Shown piece after piece: positions 624-36,501 of a stretch of DNA of 41,917 nt. The DNA comes from Acidimicrobiia bacterium. GTDB taxonomy: Bacteria > Actinomycetota > Acidimicrobiia > Acidimicrobiales > Aldehydirespiratoraceae. Below the pieces are notes generated by a model. It was not told the DNA's origin. It searched no databases and saw only the letters and a program-made list of their open reading frames with translations. The translations under genes were made by a program, and so were the position numbers. Position 1 is the first letter of the stretch. The number at the start of each line of letters is the position of its first letter. Where the stretch lies: contig JAGWAO010000009.1 in assembly GCA_021296315.1 (NCBI GenBank), positions 1,976 through 43,892 on the forward strand. The letters run 5' to 3'.

Positions 624-774
624 CTAGGGAGCGCTGACAGGCGAAAGAGCATCGCGTCGCACGGGTGTCATTCCCGCTCTTGTTCGCTGCGCTCACGGGC
701 CGCTGGGGCCACGGCCACGCTGCATGTCTCGCGGAGCCGTCAAATGGGCCGCGAGCAATCCGCTCGGCCTCTAG
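624..774 (-). repeat. Dispersed ~150-bp element, copy A
   Basis: CTAG at 624-627 and 771-774; 50-bp core 671-720 (3 mismatches to consensus); terminal motif cgctcggcctctag 761-774. Confidence 0.9.
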
Positions 775-839
775 TGAGGCTTCAGGCTGTAGCCGGTCAA
801 CCCCGGGATCTGTGGCCGAGCCGCTACCGTTCTGCTGCG

Positions 840-2057
840 ATGGCGGGTCCGTTGGAAGGGTTCCGAGTCGTCGAGCTCGGGGTGTGGGTAGCCGGACCGG
901 CGGCAGGCGGGATACTGGCCGACTGGGGTGCCGACGTGGTGAAGCTGGAGCCCACCGGCGGCGATCCAGGCCGCCTGTTCCAGTACATGCTCGGTGGGGA
1001 CATGCCGACCAACCCGGTGTTCGACATGGACAACCGGGGCAAGCGCAGCATCGCCCTCAACCTCACTGCCGACGACGGGCGTGCTGTGATGGATGAGCTG
1101 CTGGCGGGGGCCGACGTGTTCGTCACCAATGTCCGTCTTGGCGGGCTGGACCGTCTGGGCCTCGATCATGCCTCGGTCACCGCCCGCCATCGCAGGCTCG
1201 TCTACGCCGCCATCACCGGCTACGGGATGGAGGGCACCGAGGCCGGCAGCGGCGCCTTCGATGTGGCCGGCTTCTGGGCTCGCTCGGGAATAGCCCACCT
1301 GCTGACCCCCGAGGGCGCCGATCCTCCGTTCCAGCGGGGCGGCATGGGCGACCACAACACTGGGCTGGCCACGGCAGCGGGAGTCTGTGCGGCCCTGCTG
1401 GCCAGGGAGCGAACGGGCGAGGGCCAGGTGGTCAGCACTTCGCTGCTGCGGCAGGGCGCCTACACCATCAGCTTCGACTTGTCGGTGACGCTGGGGTGGG
1501 GCCTGACGCTGCAGATCGGCCGCCGCGACAACATGGGCAACCCGGCCATGAACAACTACACCGCGGGCGACGGCCGCCGGTTCTGGCTCGTCGGCCTTGA
1601 ACCGGACCGGCACTGGGCACCGCTGACTCGGGCCGTCGGGCGGCCCGACTGGCAACAGCACGAGCGCTACCGCACTGCTCGGGGACGCCATCACAACGCA
1701 GCCAGCCTGGTGGTCGAGCTGGACGAGATCTTCGCCACCCGGCCTCTGGACGAATGGGCCGAGATCTTCGCCACCGAGCCCGAGCTGTTCTGGGCGCCCA
1801 TCCAGTCACCCGACGATCTGCTGGCCGATCCGCAGTTCGCCGCGGCCGGAGGACTGGTGGAAGTGCCCGACGGTGCGAGCACGTCCACGATGGTCGCAAC
1901 CCCGGTCGACTTCTCCGAAACGGCCTGGACTCCGAGGAGCATGGCTCCCCGCCTCGGCGAGCACAGCTACGAGATTCTGCGCTCACTGGGTCGCAGCGAA
2001 GCGGAGATCGAGGCCCTGGTTGCGTCCGGCGTGGTAGGCCTCGACGGCCCGGACTAA
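840..2057 (+). CDS. CaiB/BaiF (family III) CoA-transferase
   Basis: MAGPLEGFRVVELGVWVAGP...LADWGADVVKLE, NRGKRSIALNL, C-terminal APRLGEH. ATG 840 is preferred over the ORF-track start at 420. Confidence 0.92.
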   Translation: MAGPLEGFRVVELGVWVAGPAAGGILADWGADVVKLEPTGGDPGRLFQYMLGGDMPTNPVFDMDNRGKRSIALNLTADDGRAVMDELLAGADVFVTNVRLGGLDRLGLDHASVTARHRRLVYAAITGYGMEGTEAGSGAFDVAGFWARSGIAHLLTPEGADPPFQRGGMGDHNTGLATAAGVCAALLARERTGEGQVVSTSLLRQGAYTISFDLSVTLGWGLTLQIGRRDNMGNPAMNNYTAGDGRRFWLVGLEPDRHWAPLTRAVGRPDWQQHERYRTARGRHHNAASLVVELDEIFATRPLDEWAEIFATEPELFWAPIQSPDDLLADPQFAAAGGLVEVPDGASTSTMVATPVDFSETAWTPRSMAPRLGEHSYEILRSLGRSEAEIEALVASGVVGLDGPD

Positions 2058-2085
2058 CCGGCGCGCCGTCAGCCTTCTACAGTCG

Positions 2086-3249
2086 TCAGCCTTCTATGTC
2101 GGCCACCCTGCGAGCCCGCAGGGTGCACAGCGAACCCCGCACCCGAACCACGCCGTCGGTGATCACCACGGCCACGCCGGGGAACTCCCCAGCCGCGATG
2201 GCCTCCGCTGCCGTGTCGCACACCGAGCCCAGCGAGGTGTCCATCACGACGATGTCGGCCAAGGCCCCCGGAGCGATCACGTTGCCGTCGGATCCGAAGG
2301 CCTTGGCAGCCTGGCCCGACGCGACGGCCCACGCCGTCTCCGGTGCGACTCCGGCCAGCGAGCAGACATCGCCGATGGTCTTGAGGATGCCCAGCGATGT
2401 GACGCCATAGCCGGTAGGCGTGTCCGTCCCGATCAGCAGCCGATCGAGCTCGCCCCGGTCGGCCAGTCCCTCCACCACTCGCAGCATCGGCCTGGTGCCG
2501 CCGGCCTGTACCACCTCGACGAACGGCGGGCCGTCGGAGCCACAGAGCATGTCGATGTCGTCGTCGGACAGGGACGCGAACGTGTTGGCATGCGACGCGA
2601 TGGACGGAACCGCCGTGAGGACGTCCTCGGCTGAGAAATAGGGGTGCTCGTCGCCTCCGGGGCCCCGGTCGGAGGTGCAGCCGCAGTGCATGTGGACCGT
2701 CATCCCGAGCCGGCGGGCGTGCGTCGACAGTTCCCCGGCGCGCACCGGGTCCTTGAGCGAGCCGACGCCGATCTCGCCGATGATCCTCATGCCCGCTTCG
2801 TAGGCCCGGTCGATGTGGGAGAAGTCGGTGTCCTTCTCCAGCAGCATCGCTCCCCCGTGCACCTTGATGCCCGCGGGCCGGTGGTGCTCGAAGGAGTGGA
2901 ACGCCCCGAGAGCGATCCCGAGCGCCGACTCGGCCCCGATCCGTCCCGGGGCATGGACCTCACCCGCCGAGATGGCCCGGGTGACCGCCCCGTGCATCAT
3001 GCGTTCCAGGTACCCGACCGACTGCTGCTTGGGCGCGTAGTCGCCGAGAGTGGGGTGCATGTGGGTGTCGACCAGGCCCGGGGCGACCGTCATGCCCTTG
3101 CAGTCGATGACGGTGTCGGCGGTGGTGGCCGCGCCGGCGTCGAACGACGCTATGCGGCCCTCATCGACGACGATCGTGTCCGCCTCCAGCGTCGGCGCGT
3201 CGAGCACGCCGGTGAGCACCTGGCCGATGTTGTGCAGTACGAGTTGCAT
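2086..3249 (-). CDS. Enamidase-like amidohydrolase
   Basis: NIGQVLTG...ADTIVVDEG, PGLVDTHMH..GDYAPKQ, RPAGIKVHGGA, IGEIG, MHCG, SHAN, GTDTPTG, MDTSLGSV. Recognised as colinear with the enamidase (Ena) of Eubacterium barkeri nicotinate fermentation. Confidence 0.85.
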   Translation of the reverse strand: MQLVLHNIGQVLTGVLDAPTLEADTIVVDEGRIASFDAGAATTADTVIDCKGMTVAPGLVDTHMHPTLGDYAPKQQSVGYLERMMHGAVTRAISAGEVHAPGRIGAESALGIALGAFHSFEHHRPAGIKVHGGAMLLEKDTDFSHIDRAYEAGMRIIGEIGVGSLKDPVRAGELSTHARRLGMTVHMHCGCTSDRGPGGDEHPYFSAEDVLTAVPSIASHANTFASLSDDDIDMLCGSDGPPFVEVVQAGGTRPMLRVVEGLADRGELDRLLIGTDTPTGYGVTSLGILKTIGDVCSLAGVAPETAWAVASGQAAKAFGSDGNVIAPGALADIVVMDTSLGSVCDTAAEAIAAGEFPGVAVVITDGVVRVRGSLCTLRARRVADIEG

Positions 3250-3323
3250 TGTTGGTCTCCCGGGGGTCGTGCGTTGGAGCCAGGCGTTGCGCGGCCCGGC
3301 GGCCGCGCCGAGGTCGGCGCCGA

Positions 3324-4310
3324 CTAGAGGTTGACCATGATCTTGTTCACGAACAGGTCGATCTGGGCAGGATCATCGGTCAGCGGGTTGATGATCAAGT
3401 GGTCGATTCCGGCACCGGACAGGGCCCGGATGCGGTCGGTCATCTCGTCGATGGTGCCGAACAGGTACGCATTCTGAAGATCCTCGTCGGAGCGCTTGAC
3501 GTCCATGACCGTCCGGTAGGCGGCGAGCTGCTCGGCGATGACCCGCTCGCGGTCGGCAGAGTCGACGATGTGCAGCCATTGGGCGTGAGACATGGTGAAG
3601 GCGCTCATATCCCGCCTGGCGCCCAGGTAGCCGCGCACCGATGCGATGTCGTCGGCGACGATCTCGGGGCTGGTGCCGCTGGACCGGCAGATCCAACCGT
3701 CGTGGCGCCCGATCCGTGCCAGCACCGCAGGCGCCATGTTCGGCGTGTCGACGTTGTCGACGACATGCACCTGGGAGCCGCCGCCGATCCAGACCGGGAT
3801 GGGTTGGTTGGGCCGCGGGTGCAGGGTTGTTCCGTCGGCAACGCTGTAGTACGAGCCGCGAAAGCTGACCTCGTCGGTGCTGAGCAGCAGGCTGATGAGT
3901 TCGAGGGCCTCGTCGGTGCGCCGTCCCCGTTCACGCCGGGGTATCCCCACCGACGCGAACTCCATGTCGTCGTGGCCGGTGCCGATCCCCAGCACCACCC
4001 GTCCCCCGCCGGCAAGGCTGTCAAGGCTGGCAACCTCCTTGGCGATGATGGTCGGGTGACGGAACGGCGCGCAAAGGATGGCCGTGCCCAAGCGGATGCG
4101 CTCGGTCACGCCGGCGGCCACCGAGAGCGTGATCATGGGATCCTGCCAGGCCACCGAGTAGACGTTCGGGGCTACGAGCAGGTGATCGATCACCCACAGC
4201 GCCGAGAACCCGGCCTCCTCCACCTTGGCGAAGTACGGCACCAGCCTCCGCGCCGATGCCGCGGAGGTCTCAGGCCCGGCGTAGGACGGCACCCGCCAAC
4301 CGAAGTCCAT
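3324..4310 (-). CDS. LLM-class (luciferase-like) flavin/F420-dependent oxidoreductase
   Basis: GFSALWVIDH, TERIRLGTAIL, RHPTIIAKEVASLD, GRVVLGIGTG, PIPVWIGG. Confidence 0.9.
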   Translation of the reverse strand: MDFGWRVPSYAGPETSAASARRLVPYFAKVEEAGFSALWVIDHLLVAPNVYSVAWQDPMITLSVAAGVTERIRLGTAILCAPFRHPTIIAKEVASLDSLAGGGRVVLGIGTGHDDMEFASVGIPRRERGRRTDEALELISLLLSTDEVSFRGSYYSVADGTTLHPRPNQPIPVWIGGGSQVHVVDNVDTPNMAPAVLARIGRHDGWICRSSGTSPEIVADDIASVRGYLGARRDMSAFTMSHAQWLHIVDSADRERVIAEQLAAYRTVMDVKRSDEDLQNAYLFGTIDEMTDRIRALSGAGIDHLIINPLTDDPAQIDLFVNKIMVNL

Positions 4311-4353
4311 CAGCTGATCCGGCCTTCCGGAGGTGCCGGGTTGCTGGCGTCAC

Positions 4354-5169
4354 TCATACCGACACACCGGCAGCCCGCATCTCCGCGCCGACCGAGCCGT
4401 ACAGGCGCCGCATCACGAGCCGGTACACCAGACCGTGGGCCTGGTCGAGGAGCAGCCCGAGAACGGTGAGCTGCACGAACGCCACGAACATCAACTCGGT
4501 GTCGAGAGTGCCCTGCGACACGATGATCAAGGCGCCCAGGCCCTTGTTGGCCCCCACGTACTCCGCTACCACCGCACCGACCAGGGCGAGCATCAACGCC
4601 ACCCGCAGCCCGCTGAAGACTGCCGGGACCGCGTGCAGGGCCTTGCACTTGGTCAGGGTCGTCCAGCGTCCGGCCCGCAGCGCCCTGAACAGCTCCAGCA
4701 TCTCTGCTGGAGCCGTCGTGAGGCCGAGATAGGTGTTCTCCAGCAGCGGGAAGAAGGCGATCAGTGCCGCGATGATCACCTTGGGGGTCATGCCGAACCC
4801 GAACCAGATGACCAGGATGGGCGCGAGCGCGAACTTCGGCAGGGCCTGGGTGACGATGACGTAGGGCATGATCACCCGGCGGGCGATGCCGAACTCCGAG
4901 GCCAGCGTGCCCAGCCCGATCCCGGCCACCCCACCGAGCGCAAACCCCAGGACGATCTCCTGAACGGTGATCCATATGTGGGGATTGGCCCGGCCCGAGC
5001 CCACGTAGTCGAGCAGGCGCTCAAGAACCGGTCCCGGCTCGGGAAGTATCAGGGGAGAATTCGTGCGAGCCCAGAGGTGCCACACAATGACGAGCACCAC
5101 CGCGGACACGATCACGAGCAGCCGGCCGAGCCAGGCCTCCGAACGCAGAGCCCTCAGCAGGCGCCTCAA
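4354..5169 (-). CDS. ABC transporter permease (SsuC/TauC/CmpB type)
   Basis: Multiple TM segments; PKFALAPILVIWFGFG and GAVVAEYVGANKGLG. Confidence 0.92.
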   Translation of the reverse strand: MRRLLRALRSEAWLGRLLVIVSAVVLVIVWHLWARTNSPLILPEPGPVLERLLDYVGSGRANPHIWITVQEIVLGFALGGVAGIGLGTLASEFGIARRVIMPYVIVTQALPKFALAPILVIWFGFGMTPKVIIAALIAFFPLLENTYLGLTTAPAEMLELFRALRAGRWTTLTKCKALHAVPAVFSGLRVALMLALVGAVVAEYVGANKGLGALIIVSQGTLDTELMFVAFVQLTVLGLLLDQAHGLVYRLVMRRLYGSVGAEMRAAGVSV

Positions 5170-5948: not shown

Positions 5949-5956
5949 GCTCTGCC

Positions 5957-5992
5957 CCTGACCCGGCGGGCACCAGTGCCCGCCGGGTCAGG
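5957..5992. terminator. Perfect 17-bp inverted repeat downstream of the substrate-binding protein gene (mRNA-stabilising or attenuating hairpin)
   Basis: cctgacccggcgggcac-ca-gtgcccgccgggtcagg; no U-tract; intra-operon position. Confidence 0.65.
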
Positions 5993-6004
5993 CTAGTTGT
6001 CGAT

Positions 6005-7186: not shown

Positions 7187-7217
7187 GATGGTCTCCCTCC
7201 GGTATTGAGACTGGCAA

Positions 7218-7248: not shown

Positions 7249-7278
7249 CTCCGCGCGTCTGTGGCATGATGGGGCGCT

Positions 7279-8612: not shown

Positions 8613-8613
8613 C

Positions 8614-12204: not shown

Positions 12205-12346
12205 CAAGAGGCCGAGCGTATAGGCGCACGAATCTGGCCCATACGGGCGAGGCCGTGGCCCGAGCGGCCCGTGAGCGAAGCGTACAAGAGCGGGAATGGC
12301 GCCCTTGCGGGGCGACCGGCTTGCATCAATCCGCGCCCGCTCCAAG
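12205..12346 (+). repeat. Dispersed element, copy B
   Basis: CAAG at both ends (12205-12208, 12343-12346); core 12247-12296 (1 mismatch). Confidence 0.9.
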
Positions 12347-14050: not shown

Positions 14051-14203
14051 CCAGAGGCCGAGCGGGATAGGGCGCGAACCATGAGAGATGCCACGAGACG
14101 CCGAGCGAGGCCGTGGCCCGAGCGGCCCGTGAGCGAAGCGAACAAGAGCGGGAACCGCGATGCCTGATCGCGAGGCGGTCGCACCAATCCGCTCCTCCTC
14201 TAC
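14051..14203 (+). repeat. Dispersed element, copy C
   Basis: ccagaggccgagcg 14051-14064; core 14105-14154 identical to consensus; right end degenerate. Confidence 0.9.
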
Positions 14204-16011: not shown

Positions 16012-16821
16012 TCAGCGGACCAGGCCACCTCCATCGACGATCAGCGACTGGCCGTTGACCATGCTGGCCGCATCGGAGGCCAGCCACACAGCCGCCTCAG
16101 CCACCTCGTCGGGAGTGAGCATGCGGCCGCCGATGTTGGTGGACGCGATCATCTTGGCGATGTCGGCGTTGTCGCCGATGAAGCGCCGGATCATGGGAGT
16201 GTCGGTCGAGCCAGGAAGCACGGCGTTGACCCTGATGCCACGGCGGGCGTACTCCTGGGCGGCCGCCTTGGTCAGCCCGACCACACCGTGCTTGGCCGCG
16301 GTGTAGTGGGGCTGGCCCGGAGCGGCCACCACGCCGGCTCCCGACGAGGTGTTGACGATGGCGCCACCGCCCTGGGTGGCCATGTGGCGCAGCTCGTGCT
16401 TCATGCACAGGAACACGCTGGTCAAGTTGACCGCGATCATGCGGTCCCAGCGGGCCAACTCGAGCTGGTCGAACTCCGACATCATGTCGGCGATCCCGGC
16501 GTTGTTGAAGGCGATGTCGAGACGGCCGTGCCGCGCCACGACCCCGTCCACCATCGACATGACGGCAGCCTCGTCGGTCACGTCCACCGCCACAGCCGAA
16601 GTCCGCGGCTGCGGCCCGCCGGAGTTGATGGCGTCCGCGGTCGCCCGCGCGCCCTCGCCGTCGACATCAGCCACCACGACATGGGCCGCACCCTGCGCGG
16701 CGAACTGCCGGGCTGCGGCCTGGCCGATCCCGCCCGCGCCGCCGGTGACCAGAACGACCTTCCCGTGCGCGAGGCCGCTCACCGCGGCCCCGCGGCCCTG
16801 CGGGCCGGGCTCAGCAGTCAT
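16012..16821 (-). CDS. SDR family NAD-dependent oxidoreductase
   Basis: TGGAGGIG, NNAG, YTAAK, IRVNAVLPG. The start may be GTG 16782. Confidence 0.93.
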   Translation of the reverse strand: MTAEPGPQGRGAAVSGLAHGKVVLVTGGAGGIGQAAARQFAAQGAAHVVVADVDGEGARATADAINSGGPQPRTSAVAVDVTDEAAVMSMVDGVVARHGRLDIAFNNAGIADMMSEFDQLELARWDRMIAVNLTSVFLCMKHELRHMATQGGGAIVNTSSGAGVVAAPGQPHYTAAKHGVVGLTKAAAQEYARRGIRVNAVLPGSTDTPMIRRFIGDNADIAKMIASTNIGGRMLTPDEVAEAAVWLASDAASMVNGQSLIVDGGGLVR

Positions 16822-16972
16822 GAGAGCACGCGCGAGCAGGCGAGAGCCCGTCGTGTCGCAGCGGTGTCACTCCCGCTCTTGTTCGCTCCGCTCACGGGCC
16901 GCTCGGGCCACGGCCTCGCTGGGCGTTTCGCCGATCTCCTCACGGATTCCCGCTTACGCTCTCGGCCTCTAG
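16819..16972 (-). repeat. Dispersed element, copy D
   Basis: Core 16870-16919 (2 mismatches); ctcggcctctag 16961-16972; other end CATG 16819-16822. Confidence 0.9.
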
Positions 16973-18118
16973 GCGCTCGAGGATGGTGACGTTGGCCTGG
17001 CCCCCACCCTCGCACATGGTCTGCAGGCCCCAGCGTCCGCCGGTGCGCTCCAACTCGTGCAGCAGGGTGGTCATCAGCTTGGCTCCGGTGCAGCCCAGCG
17101 GATGTCCCAATGCTATGGCACCGCCGTTGACGTTGACCTTGGAGTGGGGAATGTCGTGCTCATGCATCCAAGCCATCGGCACCGGCGCAAAGGCCTCGTT
17201 GCACTCGAACAGGTCGAAGTCGTCGATGGCCATGCCGGTGCGCTCCAAGGCGTAGGCGGTGGCCGGGATCGGTCCGGTCAGCATGTAGATCGGGTCGTCG
17301 CCGCGCACCGACATGTGGTGGATCCGGGCGCGTGGCTGGAGGCCGTGGACCTCGAGGGACCGCTCGGATGCGACCAGCAGAGCCGCGGCGCCGTCGCTGA
17401 TCTGGCTGGAGACCGCGGCGGTGAGCCGCCCGCCCTCGGTGAGCGGCGGCAGCGACTGCATCTTCTCAAGAGAAGTGTCGCGGCGGGGACCCTCGTCGGT
17501 GGTGACGCCGGCGACCGGCTCGATCTCGGCGGTGAAGCGTCCCTCGTCGATGGCCCGGATGGCCCGGCGGTGGCTCTCGAGCGCGTAGTCCTCCATGTCG
17601 GCCCGGCTGAAGTCCCACTTCTCCGCGATCATCTCCGCGCCCCGGAATTGCGAGACCTCCTGGGTGCCGTAACGCTGCACCCATCCCGCCGATCCACCGA
17701 ACGGATCGGCGTGGCCCAGGGCCTCAGCGGCCACCAGGGCGGTGCCGATGGGCACCATCGACATGTTCTGGACCCCGCCCGCCACGACCAGATCGTTCAC
17801 GCCGGCCATGACGCCCAACGCCGCGAAGCTGACCGCCTGCTGGCCCGACCCGCACTGGCGGTCCACGGTGACGCCGGGCACGGCCTCGGGCAGGCCCGCG
17901 GCCAGCCAGCAGGTGCGGGCGATGTCCCCCGCGTTGGGACCCACGTTGTCGAGGTTCCCGAAGATCACGTCCTCTACGGCCATGGGGTCGACGCCGGTTC
18001 GGCGCAGCAGCGCCTTGATGGCCGCGGCCCCGAGGTCGGCGGGATGCACCTCGGACAGCCCTCCGCCGCGCCGGCCCGTGGGCGTGCGCACCGCGTCGAC
18101 TATGTAAGCCTCACTCAT
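16940..18118 (-). CDS. fadA: Acetyl-CoA C-acyltransferase (thiolase; resembles actinobacterial FadA6 type)
   Basis: DAVRTP, VDRQCGSG, NEAFA, GGAIALGHPLG, MCEGGG. Confidence 0.93.
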   Translation of the reverse strand: MSEAYIVDAVRTPTGRRGGGLSEVHPADLGAAAIKALLRRTGVDPMAVEDVIFGNLDNVGPNAGDIARTCWLAAGLPEAVPGVTVDRQCGSGQQAVSFAALGVMAGVNDLVVAGGVQNMSMVPIGTALVAAEALGHADPFGGSAGWVQRYGTQEVSQFRGAEMIAEKWDFSRADMEDYALESHRRAIRAIDEGRFTAEIEPVAGVTTDEGPRRDTSLEKMQSLPPLTEGGRLTAAVSSQISDGAAALLVASERSLEVHGLQPRARIHHMSVRGDDPIYMLTGPIPATAYALERTGMAIDDFDLFECNEAFAPVPMAWMHEHDIPHSKVNVNGGAIALGHPLGCTGAKLMTTLLHELERTGGRWGLQTMCEGGGQANVTILERLEAESVSGNP

Positions 18119-20146: not shown

Positions 20147-21391
20147 GTGGTTCGACACCGCTCCGATCAAGACTCCGGGGTCTGCGACGACACCGCGGAG
20201 CAGGCCGAGTTCAGGGCCAGAGTGCGGTCCTGGCACGATCGCCACGCCACTGTTCGGTCTCACGACGACCTGTGGAGGGTGCCGCTCTACGTCGACGAGG
20301 CCCGGGCCGAGGAATCCTTCCAGAACGGGAGGGCCTGGCAGCGCACCCTGTTCGAGCACGGCTGGGCCGGGCTCACGTGGCCCCGCGCCTACGGCGGGGG
20401 CGGGGGCGAGCCCTGGCAGGCCCGAATCTTCTCCGAGGTGGCGGCGGGCTACGAGGAGTGGCCCGGTTTCATCGGCGCGACCATCGCCATGCTCGGACCC
20501 ACGCTGCTGCGCCACGGCACCGAGGAGCAGAAGCGCCGTTTCGTGCCCGGCCTCCTGTCGGGGGAGCTGGCCTTCTGCCAGCTGTTCAGCGAGCCGGGCG
20601 CGGGGAGCGACCTGGCCGGGCTGGCCATGCAGGCCCAGCGCGACGGCGATGAATTCGTGGTGAACGGCCAGAAGGTGTGGAACTCCCAGGCCCAGTTCTG
20701 CGACTGGGGGTTCCTGCTGGTGCGGACCGATCCCGACGCGCCCAAGCACCGGGGCATCACCTTCCTTCTCGTGGAGATGGGCTCGCCGGGGATCGAGGCC
20801 CGACCCCTCGTGCAGATGAATGGCTCGGCCCACTTCAACGAGGTCTTCTTCGACGACGTGCGTGTACCGGCGGCCAACGTGGTGGGCGATGTCGACGGGG
20901 GCTGGGGACCGGCCCGCGCGGTCCTGCTCAACGAGTCGGCCTTCATCGGCGACCGCAGGGGGACGAGCATCATGGCACCGCTGTCGGAGCTGGCCCGCCG
21001 CCACGGCCGGCTCGGCGACCCACTCGTGCGTCAGCGGCTGGTCGACGCTTGGGCCCGCGAGCGGATGCAGGGCTGGATGGGCGAGACCATCCAGAACGCG
21101 GTGCGCCGGCGCGAGCCGCCCCCCATCGACCCCGGGATCATGAAGCTGTTCGCCGCCGAGTCGAAGCGGCGCAGCGGCGACTTGGCCGCGTCGCTCGGCG
21201 GCCTGGCCGTGGTGGCCGACTGGAACGAGCCGGCCCGATGGGCCCGCCACGAGCTGATGGGCCGGTACGCGGTCTCTATCGGCGGCGGGACCGACGAGGT
21301 GATGCGCAACAACGTGGCCGAGCGGGCCCTCGGCCTGCCCAGGGAGCCCAGCGTCGACAGGAATGTCCCCTGGCGGGACATTCCCCGGTGA
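20147..21391 (+). CDS. Acyl-CoA dehydrogenase
   Basis: CQLFSEPGAGSDLA, NGQKVWNS, FNEVFFDDV, IGGGTDEVMRN. Exact start uncertain. Confidence 0.93.
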   Translation: MVRHRSDQDSGVCDDTAEQAEFRARVRSWHDRHATVRSHDDLWRVPLYVDEARAEESFQNGRAWQRTLFEHGWAGLTWPRAYGGGGGEPWQARIFSEVAAGYEEWPGFIGATIAMLGPTLLRHGTEEQKRRFVPGLLSGELAFCQLFSEPGAGSDLAGLAMQAQRDGDEFVVNGQKVWNSQAQFCDWGFLLVRTDPDAPKHRGITFLLVEMGSPGIEARPLVQMNGSAHFNEVFFDDVRVPAANVVGDVDGGWGPARAVLLNESAFIGDRRGTSIMAPLSELARRHGRLGDPLVRQRLVDAWARERMQGWMGETIQNAVRRREPPPIDPGIMKLFAAESKRRSGDLAASLGGLAVVADWNEPARWARHELMGRYAVSIGGGTDEVMRNNVAERALGLPREPSVDRNVPWRDIPR

Positions 21392-21404: not shown

Positions 21405-21554
21405 CCAGGGGCTGCGCTGACGGGCGGGCGTCCGTCGCGATGCGGCGGTGTCACTCCCGCTCTTGTTCGCTGCGCTGACGGGCCGCTCGGGCCACGGCCT
21501 CACTCAGCGCTGCCACAACGCCCCCGACTCGCCGCCTACCCGCTCGGCCTCTAG
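21405..21554 (-). repeat. Dispersed element, copy E
   Basis: CCAG 21405-21408; core 21454-21503 (4 mismatches); cgctcggcctctag 21541-21554. Confidence 0.9.
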
Positions 21555-29517: not shown

Positions 29518-29582
29518 GTCAGGTGCCTTTCCTATTGGCCGCTGTTGTCGTGAGCGGTTGTCCGATGTCTGAGGATGCGATC

Positions 29583-30588: not shown

Positions 30589-30604
30589 TAGCGCGTCAAC
30601 TCCC

Positions 30605-32029: not shown

Positions 32030-32036
32030 GCACCCA

Positions 32037-32087
32037 CGGAATTGGCAGCGTTCTGCACGCATGGCGTGCACTTCCCTGCCAATTCCG
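32037..32087. terminator. Long hairpin between convergent deaminase genes (probable bidirectional terminator)
   Basis: cggaattggcag...tgcacgc-atg-gcgtgca...ctgccaattccg. Confidence 0.7.
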
Positions 32088-32103
32088 GAATGCCTGGACC
32101 AGC

Positions 32104-33474
32104 TCACCAGAGAGGCGTGGCCGGGTTGCCCTTGAGGGCCTCGCGCCGCTGGAACAGCTCCTCGGCCGCGGCCTGCGCCTCCGCGGCCACGGCTCCCACA
32201 TCTACGGAGACCACCTCGCCGCCCTGCACCAGGCGGCGGCCCCGTACCCACACGTCGCTCACGTCGTGGGCGTGGGCGGTGAACACCAGATGAGCCGGGG
32301 CGTTGAAGTGCTGTCCGTGCATCACCGGCACGAAGTGAAGGCCCCCGATGTCGACCATGGCGATGTCGGCGTCCTTGCCGACCTCGAGGGTGCCGGTGAC
32401 GTCATCGAGGCCGAGAGCGACCGCACCCGAGCGGGTGGCCATGTCGAGCACGTCCCAGGGATCGGCCGCGACCGGATCGAGCGTGCTGACCTTAGCCAGC
32501 AGCGAGGCGAACTTCATCTCGCCCAGCATGTCGAGGTTGTTGTTCTCCTTCTCGCCGTCGGTTCCCAGCCCGACGGTCATCCCCGAGGCCCGGTAATGGT
32601 CGATCCGGGCCGGACCGGAGGCGATCTTCATGTTGGAACAGGGACAGTGGGTCGCGGCGGTGCCGGTGCGGGCCATCAGCTCAACCTCGCGGTCGTCGAG
32701 CCACACGCAGTGGGCCACGACGGTGCGCTCGCCGAGGATGCCCCGGTTGTAGAACTCCTCGATCGGACGCCGCCCGAACTGGTGCAGGCTCTCCTGCACC
32801 TCCCACACCGTCTCGGATGAGTGGGTGTGGATGCCGGTGTCGAACTCCTCGGCCAGTGCTGCCGCGTCCCTGAACATCTCGGGCGAGCAGTAGAACATGT
32901 GCTCCAACCCCACCCAGGACCGGACCCGGCCCTCCGCGGCGGTGCGGTGGGTCTCCAGCAGGCGCCGGTTCGACTCGAGGGTCTCGAAGTAGTCGTAGCG
33001 GTCGGCGGTGTAGGGAGCCAGCGTGGCCCGGATGCCGATCTCCTCCGCGGCTTCGGCCGACCCTTCCATGAAGCGCCACATGTCGAGCACGGAGGTGGTG
33101 CCGCCGCTCAGGCACTCGGTGTAGGCCATGTAGGAAGCCGCCTTGGCGATCTCGGGGGTCAGCGCCCGGTGGGCCGGGTCGACGTAGTTCTCCAGCCAGT
33201 CGAACAGGGCCAGCCCCTCGGCCGTGCCCCGCAGCAGCCCGGAGTGCAGGTGGGCGTTGTGCATGCCGGGGATCACCACATGGTTGGCCGCGTCGGCCAC
33301 CGGCGCACTCGCGGCGGCGGGATGGGCCGCCACTTCATCGGGCGGCCCGACCGCGGCGATCGTGCCGTCCACCACGAGCACCGAGCCCGGGTCGTGGCTC
33401 ACCCGGCGGCCTTCCAGCGGCAAGACGGTGCCGCCGGAGATGAGGAATGTGGTGCCGTTCGAAGTTCCGCCCAC
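32104..33474 (-). CDS. MtaD/SsnA-like amidohydrolase (MTA/SAH or purine deaminase family)
   Basis: PGMHNAHLHS, GTTSVLDM, IHTHSSE, AHCVW, HCPCSNMK, LGTDG, EVGKDAD. Confidence 0.9.
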   Translation of the reverse strand: MGGTSNGTTFLISGGTVLPLEGRRVSHDPGSVLVVDGTIAAVGPPDEVAAHPAAASAPVADAANHVVIPGMHNAHLHSGLLRGTAEGLALFDWLENYVDPAHRALTPEIAKAASYMAYTECLSGGTTSVLDMWRFMEGSAEAAEEIGIRATLAPYTADRYDYFETLESNRRLLETHRTAAEGRVRSWVGLEHMFYCSPEMFRDAAALAEEFDTGIHTHSSETVWEVQESLHQFGRRPIEEFYNRGILGERTVVAHCVWLDDREVELMARTGTAATHCPCSNMKIASGPARIDHYRASGMTVGLGTDGEKENNNLDMLGEMKFASLLAKVSTLDPVAADPWDVLDMATRSGAVALGLDDVTGTLEVGKDADIAMVDIGGLHFVPVMHGQHFNAPAHLVFTAHAHDVSDVWVRGRRLVQGGEVVSVDVGAVAAEAQAAAEELFQRREALKGNPATPLW

Positions 33475-33566
33475 TGTGCCGCCTTCCGCTTGATGGTGCC
33501 GACGCGCTCAGCTTGCTACGCCGCGCCCGGCCAAGCCCCAGTCAGGGGACGAACTGCGACCGATGC

Positions 33567-33992
33567 TCAGTGGGAGGCGACCACCACATTGTCGAGCAAC
33601 TCGCTGTCGCCGGTGCGGACGTACCACTCCCAACGGGATCCGTCGGGATCGGTGAGCCAGGTCTCGGTCTTGGTGGCGTAGCAGCACAGGGTGTCGTCGA
33701 CCCCGGTGGTCTCGAGGCCCGCCCGGGTGAGGCGCTGCTCGGCTTCAACCACCTGCTCGGCGGTCTCGGTCTCCACGCCGAGATGGTTGATGATTCCGCC
33801 CGTCCCGCAGCATCCGGCGGGGTCGGAGGCTCCGTCCGCGGCCTCGAAGAGCACCAGCTTCAGGGGCGGCTCGTCAATGGCGAAGTTGGCGTAGCCGGGC
33901 CGGCGACGGGCCGGCTCTGTTCCGAACATCCGGGTGTAGAAGTCCACCGCGGAGTCCAGGTCAGCCACGTTCAGCGCGAGTTGCAGTCTCAC
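33567..33992 (-). CDS. ArsI/CadI family VOC metalloenzyme
   Basis: QLALNV, PGYANFAIDEPPLKLVLFE, NHLGVE, CCYA, W.TDPDG.RWEWY. Confidence 0.9.
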   Translation of the reverse strand: MRLQLALNVADLDSAVDFYTRMFGTEPARRRPGYANFAIDEPPLKLVLFEAADGASDPAGCCGTGGIINHLGVETETAEQVVEAEQRLTRAGLETTGVDDTLCCYATKTETWLTDPDGSRWEWYVRTGDSELLDNVVVASH

Positions 33993-34149
33993 TGTCTCTC
34001 CTTCGTCTCAATCGGGTGTCCCAGTCGCGTGTCGGTCCAAGTCTCAGTCGTCGGACGACGCATGCCCCAACCCGGGCCGGGCTGACAATATTCCCTTCCG
34101 GACCCGGAGGCCCCTCGCTGGTCGGCGCCCCGGTTAGCGTCTTGTTGTC

Positions 34150-35181
34150 GTGCGGACCCGATACTCCGAGGATCAGCAGGCCGTCGCTGAGGCCTTCGGT
34201 GACCTGTTCGCCCGCGAGGCGACTCCCGAAGCGGTGCGGGCCGCGGAGGCGGGCTGCGGTTTCGATCCCGACCTGTGGCGCAAGCTCGTCGCCGCGGGCG
34301 CTCCGGGGATGGCGGTCGGCGTCGCCGACGGGGGTGGCGGGGCCTCTCTCGTCGATCTGGCCGTGGTGGTGCACGAATGGGGTCGCCGGATCGCACCGGT
34401 CCCGCTGGTGGAGCACGCGGTTTGTGCCCGACTGCTGGCGGCAGCCGGCGTGGGCTCACGGCGGCATCTGGTCGCCTCGGTGGCCTCCGGTGAACTTATT
34501 GCCACCCTTGCTCCCGGGCCGGTCGACGCCGACGGCACGGTCCGGCTCGTCCCCGCCGGCGCGGTGGCCGACATCGTGGCCGCCAGGCGCGGCGACGACA
34601 TCGTGGTCTCCCGCGGTCAGCCCCCCGGTACGGCCCGACCCAACACCGCCGACCTGCCCCTCGCTGACCGGGACCTCTCCGACGCCGAGACCGTCGCGTC
34701 AGGGGCGGCCGCCGCAAGTGCCTGGGACCGCGCCCTTGCCGAGTGGAAGGCGCTCATGGCGGTGGCCTATGCCGGCCTGGCCGGCGAGGTGCTGGCCATG
34801 GGGGTGGCCTACACCAAGCAGCGACACCAGTTCGGCGTGCCGGTCGGGTCCTTCCAGGCCGTGCAGCACGGCCTGGCCGACGCTGCCACCCGCGCCGAGG
34901 GCGCCCGCCTGCTGGCCTTCCGGGCGGTCTGCGCGGTCGACGCCGACACCGCCGGCGGAGCCAGGCTCGCGTCGATGGCACTGCTGTTCGGTGCGGAATC
35001 GGCCCGGTTCGCGTCCGATCGGGCGCTGCAGTACCACGGCGGCTACGGCTATAGCGCCGAGTACGACGTGCAACTGTACTACCGCCGGGCCGCGGCCTGG
35101 CTGCTGCAGCTCGGCGAGCCCGCAACCGAGATCGCCCAGCTCGCCGAGACCGATCTAGGCGCCAAGGCTCGGACGGCCTGA
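34150..35181 (+). CDS. Acyl-CoA dehydrogenase, short (beta-type) subunit
   Basis: YSEDQQA, RHQFGVPVGSFQAVQHGLAD, QYHGGYGY..EYDVQLYYRRA; TGATG overlap with the next gene. Confidence 0.9.
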   Translation: MRTRYSEDQQAVAEAFGDLFAREATPEAVRAAEAGCGFDPDLWRKLVAAGAPGMAVGVADGGGGASLVDLAVVVHEWGRRIAPVPLVEHAVCARLLAAAGVGSRRHLVASVASGELIATLAPGPVDADGTVRLVPAGAVADIVAARRGDDIVVSRGQPPGTARPNTADLPLADRDLSDAETVASGAAAASAWDRALAEWKALMAVAYAGLAGEVLAMGVAYTKQRHQFGVPVGSFQAVQHGLADAATRAEGARLLAFRAVCAVDADTAGGARLASMALLFGAESARFASDRALQYHGGYGYSAEYDVQLYYRRAAAWLLQLGEPATEIAQLAETDLGAKARTA

Positions 35182-36347
35182 TGGACTTTGCGCTGCCGAC
35201 GCAGGCCGAGGAGTTCAGGACCGAGGTCCAGCAGTTCCTGACCGAGCACCTCACCGCCGAAATGATCGCGGCGACCAGGGACGGCACGATCCACTCCCCC
35301 GCGCTGCACCGGGCCATAGCCGACCGGGGCTGGCTGTCGGGGGCCGTTCCCGCCGAACTCGGCGGCGGCGGGATGGACCCGGTGGAGTTGTGCGTGTTGC
35401 TGGAGGAACTCCAACTACATCAGGCACCCGCCGACGCTCTCGGTGTGGCCGTGGTCACGGTGTCGATGATTCTCGAGCACGGCAACGACTTCCTGCGGTC
35501 CGAAGCAGTCCCCCGCCTACTGTCGGGCGAGGCGCTCGGCTGCTTCGGCTACAGCGAGCCGGAGTCCGGCTCCGACGTCGCCGCGGCACGCACCCGGGCC
35601 GTGCGCGACGGTGACGGATGGGTCATCAACGGATCGAAGATGTGGACCACCCTGGCCCACATCGCCGACTACGTGCTGCTGCTGACGCGCACCGACCCCG
35701 AAGTCCCCAAGCATCGCGGTCTCACCTTCTTCGTGGTGCCGCTGGACACGCCGGGCATCGAGATCCAGGCCGTCTCCACGATGGGCAACGAGAGGTCCAA
35801 CGCCACCTTCTACGACGACGTGGTGCTGGGCGACGAGTGGCGGCTCGGCGACGTGAACGACGGCTGGACGGTGATGAAGACCGCCCTCAAGTACGAGCGC
35901 GGCATCGCCGGCGGCCAGTTCCCGTCGCCTCCGGTGATCGAAGCCGCGGTCGACTGGGCCCGCCGCGCCCGCCGGGCGGACGGCACCCGCCCGCTTGACG
36001 ACGACGAGGTGCGCCACAAGCTGGTGCGGGCCATGATCGACGTGGAGGTCTGCCGCAGCTTCGCCTACCACACCGCTGCGCTGGCTTCTGAGGGCGCCAT
36101 GTTCGGGGTGGAGGGGTCGATGACCAAGCTGTTCGCCTCGGAGTCCTACAAGAAGCACTGCGCCTGGTTCCTCGACCTGATGGGCGCCGACGGGCTGCTC
36201 ACCCACGACGATCCCGGCTCCCACATGGACGGCCGCGTCGAGGAGCACTTCCGCCACGCCCCGGTGACCGCCATCTACGGCGGCACCAGCGAGATCAACC
36301 GCAACCTGGTGGCCGAGGGCTGGTTGGGCCTGCCCCGGTCGCGCTGA
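35181..36347 (+). CDS. Acyl-CoA dehydrogenase (alpha-type subunit)
   Basis: GYSEPESGSDVA, NGSKMWTT, NATFYDDV, IYGGTSEINRN. Confidence 0.93.
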   Translation: MDFALPTQAEEFRTEVQQFLTEHLTAEMIAATRDGTIHSPALHRAIADRGWLSGAVPAELGGGGMDPVELCVLLEELQLHQAPADALGVAVVTVSMILEHGNDFLRSEAVPRLLSGEALGCFGYSEPESGSDVAAARTRAVRDGDGWVINGSKMWTTLAHIADYVLLLTRTDPEVPKHRGLTFFVVPLDTPGIEIQAVSTMGNERSNATFYDDVVLGDEWRLGDVNDGWTVMKTALKYERGIAGGQFPSPPVIEAAVDWARRARRADGTRPLDDDEVRHKLVRAMIDVEVCRSFAYHTAALASEGAMFGVEGSMTKLFASESYKKHCAWFLDLMGADGLLTHDDPGSHMDGRVEEHFRHAPVTAIYGGTSEINRNLVAEGWLGLPRSR

Positions 36348-36353
36348 TCCGAC

Positions 36354-36501
36354 CCAGAGGCCGAGCCGACCGGTGCGAACCACCGGCAATCGCCGCGCGA
36401 CGCGAGGCCGTGGCCCGAGCGGCCCGTGAGCGAAGCGAACAAGAGCGGGAATTGCAACGCCGCACGGCAAGGCGACGGCGCTCCATTCAAGCTCGCATTA
36501 G
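36354..36501 (+). repeat. Dispersed element, copy F
   Basis: ccagaggccgagc 36354-36366; core 36402-36451 identical to consensus; TTAG 36498-36501. Confidence 0.9.

What the first reader, a model, noticed from the sequence alone, without database searches (positions are those of the whole stretch)
624..36501. Dispersed ~150-bp element, six copies in 42 kb, with a near-invariant 50-bp core and CTAG-like ends
Copies lie at 624-774, 12205-12346, 14051-~14203, 16819-16972, 21405-21554 and 36354-36501. Architecture: CTAG-AGGCCGAGCG, a 28-41 nt diverged arm, the core GCGAGGCCGTGGCCCGAGCGGCCCGTGAGCGAAGCGAACAAGAGCGGGAA, a ~45 nt diverged arm, then a CTAG-like tetramer. Core mismatches to consensus are only 3, 1, 0, 2, 4 and 0 of 50, while the arms are barely alignable. 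The end tetramers are identical direct repeats in copy A (CTAG/CTAG) and copy B (CAAG/CAAG), like a 4-bp target duplication. All copies sit at gene junctions and no transposase is in the window. CTAG targets are known for some IS5/IS701-family elements. Inference: a non-autonomous MITE/REP-like family at about 1 copy per 7 kb, whose core is under much stronger constraint than its arms, pointing to a functional protein-binding or RNA module. I do not recognise it as a named repeat.
Basis: partly seen in the sequence, partly recalled or inferred. Interest (0 to 1): 0.85.

Follow-up and report, generated by a model that had tools for sequence, protein, structure and literature searches.

The report
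New MITE-like repeat in sponge Acidimicrobiia
The six repeats are real copies of a small mobile DNA element, present in about 300 copies in this sponge-associated actinobacterial genome, that lands next to genes and resembles known miniature transposons but has no identifiable parent transposase.

Summary

Genome-wide the family has 313 profile hits in 2.66 Mb, about 1.2% of the DNA. It occurs in full and truncated mosaic forms.

It is a non-autonomous mobile element:
- Every window copy is missing from the same site in several congeners.
- Copy number ranges from 4 to 251 within the genus.
- The family occurs in two genera plus one genome of another order.

The ends are imperfect 15-20 bp inverted repeats. 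The CTAG-like tetramers are best read as a TA duplication inside CTAG-like targets, an IS630/Tc1-mariner-type signature. A 4-bp IS5/IS701 duplication fits less well.

CTAG is five times denser between genes than inside them, and often sits at TAG stop codons. This explains why copies lie at gene junctions.

No cognate transposase was found. Eleven Pfam transposase, recombinase and reverse-transcriptase families were searched in relatives (seven of them also in this genome). The IS630-like elements of relatives have different ends.

The near-invariant core and left end are most simply cis-acting sites needed for propagation. Evidence for an RNA structure is weak.

There is no match in Rfam, plasmids, phages or the paper library. 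I rate it a new member of a known kind, of moderate interest.

The parts
625..773 (-). Copy A, full-length element, between two divergent CoA-transferase III genes
   Evidence: nhmmer model positions 2-149, E 1.9e-31. Sequence. Flanking genes.
12206..12345 (+). Copy B, full-length element of the subfamily with a ~40-nt left arm
   Evidence: nhmmer 2-152, E 8.6e-24. Only 0-3 nt lie between the flanks in G010 and G011.
14052..14202 (+). Copy C, full-length element inserted a few codons into the 5' end of a PGA_cap-family gene
   Evidence: nhmmer 2-151, E 1.7e-29. Empty in G015 and G008, where the gene starts at ATGGAGCCGCGATC upstream of the insertion point. Pfam.
16821..16971 (-). Copy D, full-length element between a thiolase gene and a short-chain dehydrogenase gene. 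The thiolase now ends at a TGA inside the left arm.
   Evidence: nhmmer 2-152, E 5.1e-36. Empty in G011, G008, G015 and G017. The Thiolase_C match ends at residue 382 of 392.
21407..21553 (-). Copy E, full-length element between convergent genes, overlapping the 3' end of a VanA_C-domain gene
   Evidence: nhmmer 2-150, E 8.7e-30. Empty in G008, G017 and G011. G015 carries a different copy at another junction.
36355..36499 (+). Copy F, full-length element between an acyl-CoA dehydrogenase gene and tRNA-Pro
   Evidence: nhmmer 2-150, E 2e-20. 9 of 11 congener loci hold no core at this site.
671..720 (-). 50-nt core of copy A (3 mismatches)
12247..12296 (+). 50-nt core of copy B (1 mismatch)
14105..14154 (+). 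50-nt core of copy C (0 mismatches). Candidate hairpins lie at 14113-14128 and 14129-14143.
   Evidence: Hairpin columns and pair counts.
16870..16919 (-). 50-nt core of copy D (2 mismatches)
21454..21503 (-). 50-nt core of copy E (4 mismatches)
36402..36451 (+). 50-nt core of copy F (0 mismatches)
14053..14072 (+). Left terminal inverted repeat of copy C (AGAGGCCGAGCGGGATAGGG)
   Evidence: Sequence. It pairs column for column with the right end in alignment A1.
14184..14202 (+). Right terminal inverted repeat of copy C (CCAATCCGCTCC...TCTA)
   Evidence: Sequence. Terminal helix columns 140-152 of A1.

Best explanation
The six repeats belong to a family of small non-autonomous mobile DNA elements, MITE-like and mosaic in form.

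Anatomy of a full copy (~150 bp):
- imperfect terminal inverted repeats of about 15-20 bp, left (CT)AGAGGCCGAGCGGATAGG and right CCTRTCCGCGCTCGCTCT(AG);
- two diverged arms;
- a ~50-bp core.

Shown:
- Copies are gained and lost between closely related species.
- They vary 60-fold in number within a genus.
- They occur patchily in another order.

Inferred mechanism. A transposase supplied in trans cuts the element out and pastes it into TA dinucleotides, preferably inside CTAG-like sites, duplicating the TA. This is the IS630/Tc1-mariner signature. In this 69% G+C genome CTAG is rare inside genes and is concentrated between genes and at TAG stop codons. Surviving insertions therefore sit at gene junctions, often with the element's first bases completing the upstream stop codon.

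Inferred role of the conserved parts. Almost every insertion is species-specific, yet the arms are old and diverse. The near-invariant left end and core are therefore best explained as cis-acting sequences that a copy must keep in order to be copied again. The motif GAGCGG occurs three times in direct order (left end, core centre, core 3' end) and once inverted in the right end, which suggests binding sites for the mobilising protein.

Inferred cause of the orientation bias. The bias with transcription most likely reflects selection against copies that harm expression of the flanking genes.
For: Real and abundant:
- 212 core hits in G000.
- 313 nhmmer hits covering 1.2% of the genome: 113 full, 60 left arm plus core, 23 core plus right arm, 78 core-only, 39 other.

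Mobility:
- Each of the six window copies is absent from the same site in two or more of the congeners compared (five for copies A-E, eleven loci for copy F), with only 0-26 nt between the flanks.
- 46 flank pairs, from 44 copies in relatives, mapped to G000. In 33 of them fewer than 90 nt lie between the flanks in G000. In 11 of the 12 with 90-300 nt there is no core. One holds a copy of another subfamily at another junction.

Distribution:
- Genus g1 10 of 10 genomes (4-251 matches), genus g14 9 of 9 (1-56), nine other genera of the family 0 of 42.
- In a class-wide draw 5 of 301 genomes match. One is a genome of another order with 23 variant copies, while its four congeners in the draw had none.

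Terminal inverted repeats:
- On 18 copies from four lineages, the terminal helix has 5 of 12 pairs with changes on both sides.
- 87.4% of all cells pair, against 28-45% when partners are slid.

TA duplication:
- G015 site E against empty G008: CC-TA-GG becomes CC-TA-[element]-TA-GG.
- L104 against G000 C73, and L031/L040/L077 against C33, show the same pattern. L027 against C31 has TA at the empty site.
- Copy A has TA/TA and copy B CA/CA.
- Flanking direct repeats exceed permutations: k=4, 23 against 14.2, p=0.01; k=6, 7 against 1.2.

Target bias:
- CTAG is 0.39 per kb in coding DNA (observed/expected 0.14) and 1.97 per kb between genes (0.72).
- 326 of 1458 CTAG outside elements overlap a called stop codon.
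- The upstream stop codon ends on the element's first or second base in 43 of 128 co-oriented copies.
- CTAG at the left end is equally common with (25 of 125) and without (10 of 60) a co-oriented upstream gene.

Orientation:
- 99 copies are co-oriented with co-directional flanking genes and 37 opposed.
- There is no link to GC skew where the flanking genes disagree (28 concordant, 29 discordant).

Established knowledge: IS630/Tc1-mariner elements insert at TA and duplicate it. A cited reference title names TA in 5'-CTAG-3' for IS630 (PMC2170065, passages and reference list seen).
Against: No cognate autonomous element was found.
- DDE_3 (IS630) transposases gave no match in G000, G010, G017, G008, G011, G330 or G217. 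Some of these hold 89-251 core matches.
- The IS630-like elements of relatives have unrelated ends (TGGTGTGTCGCGGG..., TGTCCTGAGTC...). None of the ten loci L192-L201 fetched around DDE_3 matches holds GAGGCCGAGCG.

The TA duplication is not general.
- Only about a quarter of copies have T before the terminal A. The left tetramers CTAG, TTAG and GTAG total 47 of 190, against CCAG 48 and TGAG 22.
- Most copies show no recognisable duplication.
- Copy D needs a 1-nt indel to fit the model.
- Some sites show other patterns. L082 and L042 share GAGG/GAGAGC microhomology with the empty site. L098 has an 11-nt flanking repeat and one G010 site a 17-nt repeat.

In classical MITEs the ends are the best conserved part. 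Here an internal block is. The right end is only 50-80% conserved.

Many copies lack the right arm and right inverted repeat altogether (60 left-arm-plus-core and 78 core-only forms). A cut-and-paste transposase should need both ends.
Confidence: 0.55

Rival explanations
1. REP/BIME-like reading. The element spreads by some means, but the core is kept invariant because it works for the host at each site. It could be a transcribed hairpin module that stabilises or processes operon mRNA, or a binding site for a nucleoid or RNA-binding protein. That would give about 300 regulated junctions.
For: - Copies are intergenic but lie within or at the ends of transcription units, and are co-oriented with genes 99 to 37.
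- Divergent (promoter) regions hold fewer copies per kb than convergent or co-directional ones: 26 copies in 76 kb against 31 in 36.5 kb and 136 in 180 kb.
- Variable core positions fall in a bulge, a loop centre and a linker (indices 9, 31, 40). The paired positions are nearly invariant.
- One G-C to A-U double change occurs in hairpin 2, and one C-G to G-C double change between the left end and the pre-core.
- Contigs of two RNA-labelled runs contain the element, which is weak evidence.
Against: - Sites are almost never shared between species, so no site-specific host function is conserved.
- Loop 1 (CGAGC) is as invariant as the stems.
- Folding energies equal those of shuffles, with z from -0.33 to +0.67.
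- Mean pair probabilities over 105 copies support only one weak hairpin, about 0.36.
- Own left and right ends pair no better than ends from different copies: -12.8 against -13.0 kcal/mol, p=0.54.
- 37 of 136 informative copies are antisense to the flanking genes.
Confidence: 0.2
2. One reading: a MITE of the IS5 or IS701 type that duplicates a 4-bp CTAG (YTAR) target.
For: CTAG/CTAG in copy A and CAAG/CAAG in copy B. L031 has CCTAG on both sides and once in the empty site. Exact 4-mers recur at the right end in 23 of 111 copies, against 14.2 expected.
Against: - In the G015/G008 pair the shared string is at most CTA. In L104 it is at most TAG. Only TA is common to both registers.
- DDE_5 gave 0 of 5 genomes. 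DDE_Tnp_1_2 gave 0 of 5 over its cut-off. DDE_Tnp_1 is absent from the complete, copy-rich G010 and G017.
- Because CTAG is its own reverse complement, CTAG at both ends also follows from a TA duplication inside CTAG.
Confidence: 0.07
3. A hairpin element moved as single-stranded DNA by a HUH tyrosine transposase, either an IS200/IS605-derived PATE or a REP mobilised by a RAYT.
For: Many copies show no obvious target duplication. The core holds a G+C-rich hairpin.
Against: - Y1_Tnp (PF01797) gave no match in G000 or in five complete congeners, while the control genomes did match.
- The TnpB zinc-ribbon family gave 0 of 6 genomes of the genus.
- Orientation does not follow replication skew.
- No fixed tetranucleotide lies 5' of the element.
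Confidence: 0.03
4. A retroposed, SINE-like element. Copying would start at the constant left end and stop at variable points, giving left-end solos, left-arm-plus-core forms and full forms with target repeats of variable length.
For: - The left end is constant while the right extent varies: 113 full, 60 left arm plus core, and 135 solo left-end motifs, some of them chance matches inside genes.
- Flanking repeats of 5-17 nt occur at a minority of sites.
Against: - Reverse transcriptase (RVT_1) was found in only 2 of 6 genomes of the genus searched. It is absent from the complete genomes G017, G008 and G016.
- Forms that lack the left end also exist (23 core plus right arm).
- The ends are inverted repeats.
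Confidence: 0.04
5. A MIRU-like translational-coupling cassette. The element would carry a small ORF whose start overlaps the upstream stop codon and whose stop overlaps the downstream start codon, so that operon translation survives the insertion.
For: - In copy D the thiolase stops at a TGA that overlaps a GTG in the left arm. The ORF from that GTG runs through the core and ends at a TGA overlapping the ATG of the next gene (sequence, empty sites).
- Many left arms carry GGGAGCGA followed by N5-7 and ATG/GTG.
- Solo left ends often lie directly upstream of gene starts.
Against: - Only 20 of 108 co-oriented copies have the start codon at that position, and 50 of 108 have none in that frame.
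- Core substitutions show no third-position excess once the two polymorphic sites are set aside: 85 against 99 and 115.
- The stop codons inside the left arm are present in only about half of the copies.
Confidence: 0.05

Closest known systems
Correia repeat-enclosed elements of Neisseria
   Same: About 100-155 bp, hundreds of copies at 1-2% of a small genome. Terminal inverted repeats, a TA target, a conserved central part that binds a host protein, and location at gene junctions where they are co-transcribed.
   Different: No sequence relation was tested. Here the inverted repeats are shorter and imperfect. Many copies lack the right half. The internal core is conserved across two genera and a second order. 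No cognate transposase is known for either family.
IS630/Tc1-mariner family and its bacterial MITEs. ISY100 and IS630: PMC2170065, passages seen. 'MITEEc1_IS630' is named in bioRxiv 10.1101/2024.01.18.576219, one passage seen. RUP of Streptococcus pneumoniae is recalled.
   Same: TA is duplicated at the cleanest junctions and the context is CTAG. IS630-like elements in congeners are themselves flanked by CTAG.
   Different: The element's ends do not resemble the ends of those IS630-like elements. DDE_3 transposases are absent from several copy-rich genomes.
REP/BIME elements with RAYT transposases; RIME of rhizobia (recalled)
   Same: Mosaic make-up from a few modules, extragenic but transcribed positions, orientation bias, and hundreds of copies.
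   Different: No Y1 HUH (RAYT-type) gene in six genomes. The unit is longer than a REP palindrome. TA duplications are seen.
MIRU of Mycobacterium (recalled)
   Same: Found in an actinobacterium, between genes of operons, in the direction of translation. In some copies small ORFs overlap the neighbouring stop and start codons. Tandem arrays occur.
   Different: The ORF is present in a minority of copies. Most copies are single and dispersed, with inverted-repeat ends.
ERIC/IRU of enterobacteria (recalled)
   Same: About 127-bp imperfect palindromes with a conserved centre, lying between genes and transcribed.
   Different: Copy number here is higher and turnover between species much faster. 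No sequence relation was tested.

Membership tests
MITE (generic) | Small size, no coding capacity | tested here: met
   Length is about 100-155 bp. There is no coding pattern of substitutions in the core and no consistent ORF.
MITE (generic) | Terminal inverted repeats | tested here: met
   The terminal helix has 12 column pairs. 73.8% of its cells pair and 5 pairs change on both sides across lineages. Within G000 the repeats are imperfect.
MITE (generic) | Target-site duplication of fixed length | tested here: inconclusive
   TA is duplicated in the cleanest pairs. Most copies show none, and a few show 5-17 nt.
MITE (generic) | High copy number with insertion polymorphism | tested here: met
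   313 hits in G000. 4-251 matches per genome in the genus. Empty sites.
MITE (generic) | An autonomous element with the same ends | tested here: not met
   No gene flanked by solo left and right ends in G000 is a transposase; 19 candidates were found, 9 proteins were scanned and all are housekeeping. Loci around DDE_3 and IS110 genes lack the end motif.
IS630/Tc1-mariner-derived MITE | Insertion at TA with TA duplication | tested here: inconclusive
   Met at G015 site E, L104, L031 and copy A. Copy B has CA/CA. Not seen at L082, L042 or L098.
IS630/Tc1-mariner-derived MITE | A DDE_3 transposase in the same genome, with matching ends | tested here: not met
   PF13358 is present in 2 of 5 and 9 of 28 genomes searched. 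It is absent from G000, G010, G017, G008, G011, G330 and G217. The ends of the IS630-like elements differ.
IS5 / IS701-derived MITE | 4-bp YTAR duplication and a DDE_Tnp_1 or DDE_5 transposase | tested here: not met
   The shared junction string is 2-3 nt in the cleanest pairs. DDE_5 gave 0 of 5. DDE_Tnp_1 is absent from G010 and G017.
REP/BIME (RAYT-mobilised) | A Y1 HUH (RAYT) gene in the genome | tested here: not met
   PF01797 gave 0 of 1 (G000) and 0 of 5 complete congeners. The controls matched.
IS200/IS605 PATE, omega-RNA bearing ends | TnpA(Y1) or TnpB present; a fixed target tetranucleotide; replication-strand bias | tested here: not met
   PF01797 and PF07282 gave no match in the genus. 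Left flanks vary. Orientation is independent of skew.
Any Rfam RNA family | A match at or near the gathering score | tested here: not met
   Only tRNA-Pro passes in the window. The best sub-threshold hits on copy C reach 12-14.5 bits against cut-offs of 40-100.
MIRU-like coupling cassette | An ORF that overlaps the neighbouring stop and start codons in most copies | tested here: not met
   20 of 108 co-oriented copies have the start codon at the conserved place.

The most novel reading that the evidence does not exclude
The 45-50 nt core is not just a transposase site. It would be a portable functional module, folding as RNA or single-stranded DNA into two small hairpins, the second closed by tandem G·A pairs. 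A dedicated protein of these sponge symbionts would recognise it. The element would then spread by a machinery outside the known transposase families, or would have been recruited to tie about 300 operon junctions into one post-transcriptional or chromosome-organising network.
Probability: 0.12. Interest if true: 0.75.

Novelty: new member of a known kind. Interest (0 to 1): 0.45.

Why it matters
These uncultured Acidimicrobiia are common sponge symbionts.

- A repeat that fills about 1.2% of the genome and about one intergenic region in eight reshapes gene ends. It replaces C-termini, start codons and operon spacers.
- It turns over almost completely between species, and it breaks short-read assemblies.
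- It is a ready strain marker and a record of recent transposition and of exchange between symbiont lineages.
- The element keeps an internal 50-bp block invariant across two genera and a second order. No matching transposase is visible in complete genomes. Finding what moves it could reveal an unrecognised mobilising enzyme or host factor.
- If it is simply an IS630-type MITE whose parent is rare or lost, it is an ordinary though undescribed family.

Tried and rejected
RNA family. No Rfam match at the gathering score or at E up to 10.

RNA structure within G000.
- RNAalifold and mean pair probabilities over 105 copies gave only one weak core hairpin.
- Mutual information gave no Watson-Crick covariation.
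- Own-copy left/right duplex energies equalled cross-copy ones.
- MFE z-scores were about 0.

Protein coding of the core. Rejected.

General target duplication of 5-12 nt. Only a small excess was found.

Replication-strand bias. Rejected.

Partner genes.
- Genes lying between inverted copies (10) or between solo ends (9) are housekeeping. One 401-aa ORF has no Pfam match.
- IS110 loci hold no element.

Transposase, recombinase and reverse-transcriptase families searched in genomes: PF01797, PF01548, PF07282, PF00078, PF01609, PF13358, PF00665, PF00872, PF13586, PF13546. None is present in every copy-rich genome with intact genes.

Other collections. Plasmids, phages and viral contigs gave no match.

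Papers. The core and end strings gave only 3 unrelated primer hits for the 13-mer. 'Acidimicrobiia sponge repeat intergenic' gave 1 unrelated paper. The two genus names gave 1 paper, not read. A MITE census preprint has no mention of Acidimicrobiia (passages only). Supplementary files were not consulted and might list this family.

Sequencing runs. Contigs of two RNA-labelled and two other runs pile up on the three elements (summed depth 908-12,618 against 0-113 in the flanks), in RNA-labelled and DNA runs alike. Contigs cannot show ends, strand or level, so this says nothing on expression.

Full report
WHAT IS THERE

The 50-nt core occurs five times in the window with up to 3 mismatches, against none in 100 shuffles. 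A sixth occurrence has 4 mismatches. A profile built from genome copies finds exactly six full-length elements: 625-773(-), 12206-12345(+), 14052-14202(+), 16821-16971(-), 21407-21553(-) and 36355-36499(+). It did not note that three copies lie on the minus strand.

The window is part of a 2.66-Mb, 83-contig, 69% G+C, 86%-complete genome. Exact matches to a 23-nt piece of the core in public genomes are all in MAGs labelled Acidimicrobiia, mostly Ca. Aldehydirespirator and Ca. Poriferisodalis. The DNA runs that hold the window are mainly sponge metagenomes.

THE FAMILY

G000 holds 212 core matches with up to 8 mismatches and 313 profile hits, together 32.5 kb or 1.2% of the genome. The hits split as follows:
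- 113 full-length;
- 60 left arm plus core;
- 23 core plus right arm;
- 78 'core-only', mostly the left end fused to the core by a 13-nt arm, some in tandem arrays of 45- or 67-nt units;
- 39 other.

Left arms come in lengths of about 50, 40 and 13 nt. There are also 135 matches to the left-end 12-mer outside profile hits. Many lie just after a stop codon and just before a gene start; others are chance matches inside genes.

Per-site conservation:
- core 0.85-1.00, except two polymorphic sites and its last two bases;
- left end 0.87-0.97;
- arms 0.37-0.83;
- right end about 0.5-0.8.

The arms are not random; they define subfamilies. Copy B matches many copies in other species at 82-93% over about 136 nt.

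IT IS MOBILE

For copy F, 9 of 11 congener loci have no core at this site, and the closest one joins the flanks almost directly. For copies A-E, five congeners were compared.

| Copy | Congeners with flanks almost adjacent | Other states |
|---|---|---|
| A | G017, G015 (24 nt between flanks) | 94-152 nt in the other three |
| B | G010, G011 (0-3 nt) | 23-84 nt in the other three |
| C | G015, G008 | G017 has a shorter copy about 30 nt away at another junction; G010 and G011 hold 65-69 nt |
| D | four congeners (3-14 nt) | G010 rearranged |
| E | three congeners (11-14 nt) | G015 has a different copy at a different junction; G010 rearranged |

The reverse comparison gives the same picture. 46 flank pairs, from 44 copies in other genomes, map to G000. 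In 33 of them fewer than 90 nt lie between the flanks. In 11 of the 12 with 90-300 nt there is no core. One has a copy of another subfamily at another junction. One pair, with 395 nt between the flanks, was not examined.

Matches to a 21-nt core piece range from 4 to 251 per genome in the genus (10 of 10 genomes) and from 1 to 56 in a sister genus (9 of 9). There are none in 42 genomes of nine other genera of the family. In a class-wide draw only 5 of 301 genomes match. One is a genome of another order with 23 variant copies, whose four congeners in that draw have none. This is the pattern of an active, horizontally moving element.

ENDS AND TARGET

Across 18 copies from four lineages the two ends pair column by column.
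- 12 pairs form the terminal helix, and 5 of them change on both sides. Examples are GGATAGG/CCTATCC, GGATTGA/TCAATCC and CCAATAGGC/GCCTATTGG.
- 87.4% of all cells pair, against 28-45% when partners are slid.
- The covariation score is 0.169 against 0.098 in shuffles.
- I derived this structure from the same sequences, and the sequences are related to each other, so the figures are generous.

Within G000 a copy's own ends pair no better than ends taken from different copies. The ends therefore behave as family-level inverted repeats, as in a transposon, and not as stems maintained copy by copy.

The tetramer before AGGCC is CCAG in 48 of 190 copies, CTAG in 35, TGAG in 22 and TCAG in 17. CTAG is as frequent without a co-oriented upstream gene (10 of 60) as with one (25 of 125). 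TGAG occurs only with one (20 of 125 against 0 of 60). So CYAG is intrinsic to the element or its target, and TGAG reflects use as a stop codon.

The cleanest junctions:
- G015 against empty G008: CC-TA-GG becomes CC-TA-[element]-TA-GG.
- L104 against G000: AAGT-TA-GCGCGCC becomes AAGC-TA-[element]-TA-GCGCGCC.
- L031, L040 and L077 against G000: CC-TA-GG again.
- L027: TA at the empty site.

The strings shared by both junctions are at most CTA in one pair and TAG in another, so TA is the common denominator. Because CTAG is a palindrome, a TA duplication inside CTAG gives CTAG-like tetramers at both ends.

A permutation test shows an excess of flanking direct repeats: 23 against 14.2 for 4-mers and 7 against 1.2 for 6-mers. 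Only about 10% of full copies carry 5 nt or more. Broader tests show almost nothing.

Exceptions exist:
- Copy D fits only with a 1-nt indel.
- L082 and L042 share GAGG-type microhomology with the empty site.
- L098 has an 11-nt flanking repeat, and one G010 site a 17-nt repeat.

WHY AT GENE JUNCTIONS

CTAG is 0.39 per kb (observed/expected 0.14) in coding DNA and 1.97 per kb (0.72) between genes. 326 of 1458 CTAG outside elements overlap a called stop codon. A TA/CTAG-seeking element will therefore land, and survive, at gene ends.

The core lies outside my gene calls in 195 of 212 copies. The upstream co-oriented stop codon ends on the element's first or second base in 43 of 128 copies. It falls at two left-arm positions in 17 more, and within 10 nt upstream in about 27.

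In copy D the insertion fell between the last sense codon of a thiolase gene and the GTGA stop/start overlap with the next gene. The thiolase now runs 10 codons into the element. In copy C it fell inside the first codons of a PGA_cap-family gene, which now has a candidate new start codon inside the right arm.

ORIENTATION

Between co-directional genes 99 copies point with the genes and 37 against. Where the neighbours disagree, orientation is unrelated to GC skew: 28 concordant against 29 discordant. This argues against a replication-strand (single-stranded DNA) mechanism and for selection at the level of gene expression.

The forward strand reaches a stop codon sooner in two of three frames, at a median of 41 and 88 nt, against 124-140 nt on the reverse strand. 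A small ORF that couples the neighbouring genes is present in copies C and D but in only 20 of 108 co-oriented copies.

THE CORE

Substitutions show no codon pattern once two polymorphic sites are set aside. Over 366 instances (249 distinct) the variable sites are a bulge (index 9), the centre of a triloop (index 31) and a linker (index 40). The 21 nt GGCCCGAGCGGCCCGTGAGCG, including a 5-nt loop, are almost invariant.

Two hairpins can be drawn. The second is GU-GA-GC-loop-GC-GA-AC, with tandem G·A. One lineage changes G-C to A-U there. One C-G to G-C change links the left end to the pre-core.

Folding energies equal those of shuffles. Mean pair probabilities over 105 copies support only one hairpin, weakly.

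Insertions are nearly all species-specific, yet the arms are old and diverse. The simplest reading is that a copy must keep the left end and the core to be copied again. GAGCGG occurs in direct order at the left end, the core centre and the core 3' end, and inverted in the right end. This suggests a set of binding sites. That step is inference.

WHO MOVES IT

Not found. All counts below are genomes with a match at E 0.001 or better.

| Pfam family | Result |
|---|---|
| Y1 HUH (PF01797) | 0 of 6 genomes |
| TnpB zinc ribbon (PF07282) | 0 of 6 of the genus |
| Reverse transcriptase (PF00078) | 2 of 6 of the genus |
| DDE_Tnp_1 (PF01609) | 3 of 6 of the genus |
| DDE_5 (PF13546) | 0 of 5 |
| DDE_Tnp_1_2 (PF13586) | 0 of 5 over the cut-off |
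| IS110 DEDD (PF01548) | 5 of 5 in one set; none in G372, G377, G367, G000 |
| IS256 (PF00872) | patchy; only broken copies in G017 |
| rve (PF00665) | 5 of 5, but a single short match (220-aa frame) in G017 |
| DDE_3 / IS630 (PF13358) | 2 of 5 and 9 of 28; none in G000, G010, G017, G008, G011, G330, G217 |

The IS630-like elements of relatives sit in CTAG but have unrelated ends, and the loci fetched around DDE_3 matches lack the end motif. Genes bracketed by copies or by solo ends in G000 are housekeeping.

COMPARISON AND VERDICT

The element works like Correia, RUP or ERIC-type bacterial MITEs, and like REP/BIME mosaics in its placement. These descriptions are recalled. The TA rule of the IS630 family was read in PMC2170065.

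It fails the tests for RAYT/REP, IS200/IS605, IS5/IS701 and any Rfam family. The IS630 assignment rests on junctions only.

No match was found in plasmids, phages or viral contigs, or in the paper library. Supplements were not seen.

It is a new, unnamed member of a known kind. Two points remain unexplained: an internal block that is better conserved than the ends, and no visible parent.

Noticed in passing
G000 C57:43746-43996, C13:50794-50896, C9:88466-88553 (outside the window): The core, with or without the left end, forms tandem arrays of 45-nt or 67-nt units. One congener (G006) has three 96-nt units in a row.
   Followed up: partly
G000, for example C73:60539, C76:84478, C21:10015 (outside the window): Solo left-end modules (stop codon, AGAGGCCGAGCGG, a GGGAG-type purine run, then ATG/GTG) make up the whole spacer between two genes. 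Element fragments seem to serve as ribosome-binding regions.
   Followed up: partly
L135 = G010:C1:2233140-2233340, the site orthologous to copy C: A 45-nt insert shares the left junction of copy C. It is flanked by a 17-nt direct repeat that restores the start of the downstream gene.
   Followed up: no
L196 (G015), L201 (G377), L192 (G377), L197 (G005): IS630-like insertion sequences of two types have 25-34-nt inverted repeats and are flanked by CTAG. This shows that TA-in-CTAG insertion is active in the genus.
   Followed up: partly
G000 C4:10495, C14:27027, C60:72610, C60:93657: Runs of N start right after left-end motifs. Elements coincide with gaps or withheld stretches, so the copy number in this assembly is a lower bound.
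   Followed up: no
L154 = G000:C27:4280-5485: A 401-aa ORF bracketed by two inverted copies has no Pfam match at E 0.001 or better.
   Followed up: no
window 2-571(-) and 852-2057(+); 16012-18118(-); 20147-21391(+); 35181-36347(+): The window is rich in acyl-CoA metabolism genes: two divergent CoA-transferase III genes, a thiolase, a short-chain dehydrogenase and two acyl-CoA dehydrogenases.
   Followed up: no
window 36540-36613(+): tRNA-Pro (anticodon TGG) lies 40 nt downstream of copy F. The spacer upstream of this tRNA holds different element copies in two other species, so it is a repeated landing site.
   Followed up: partly
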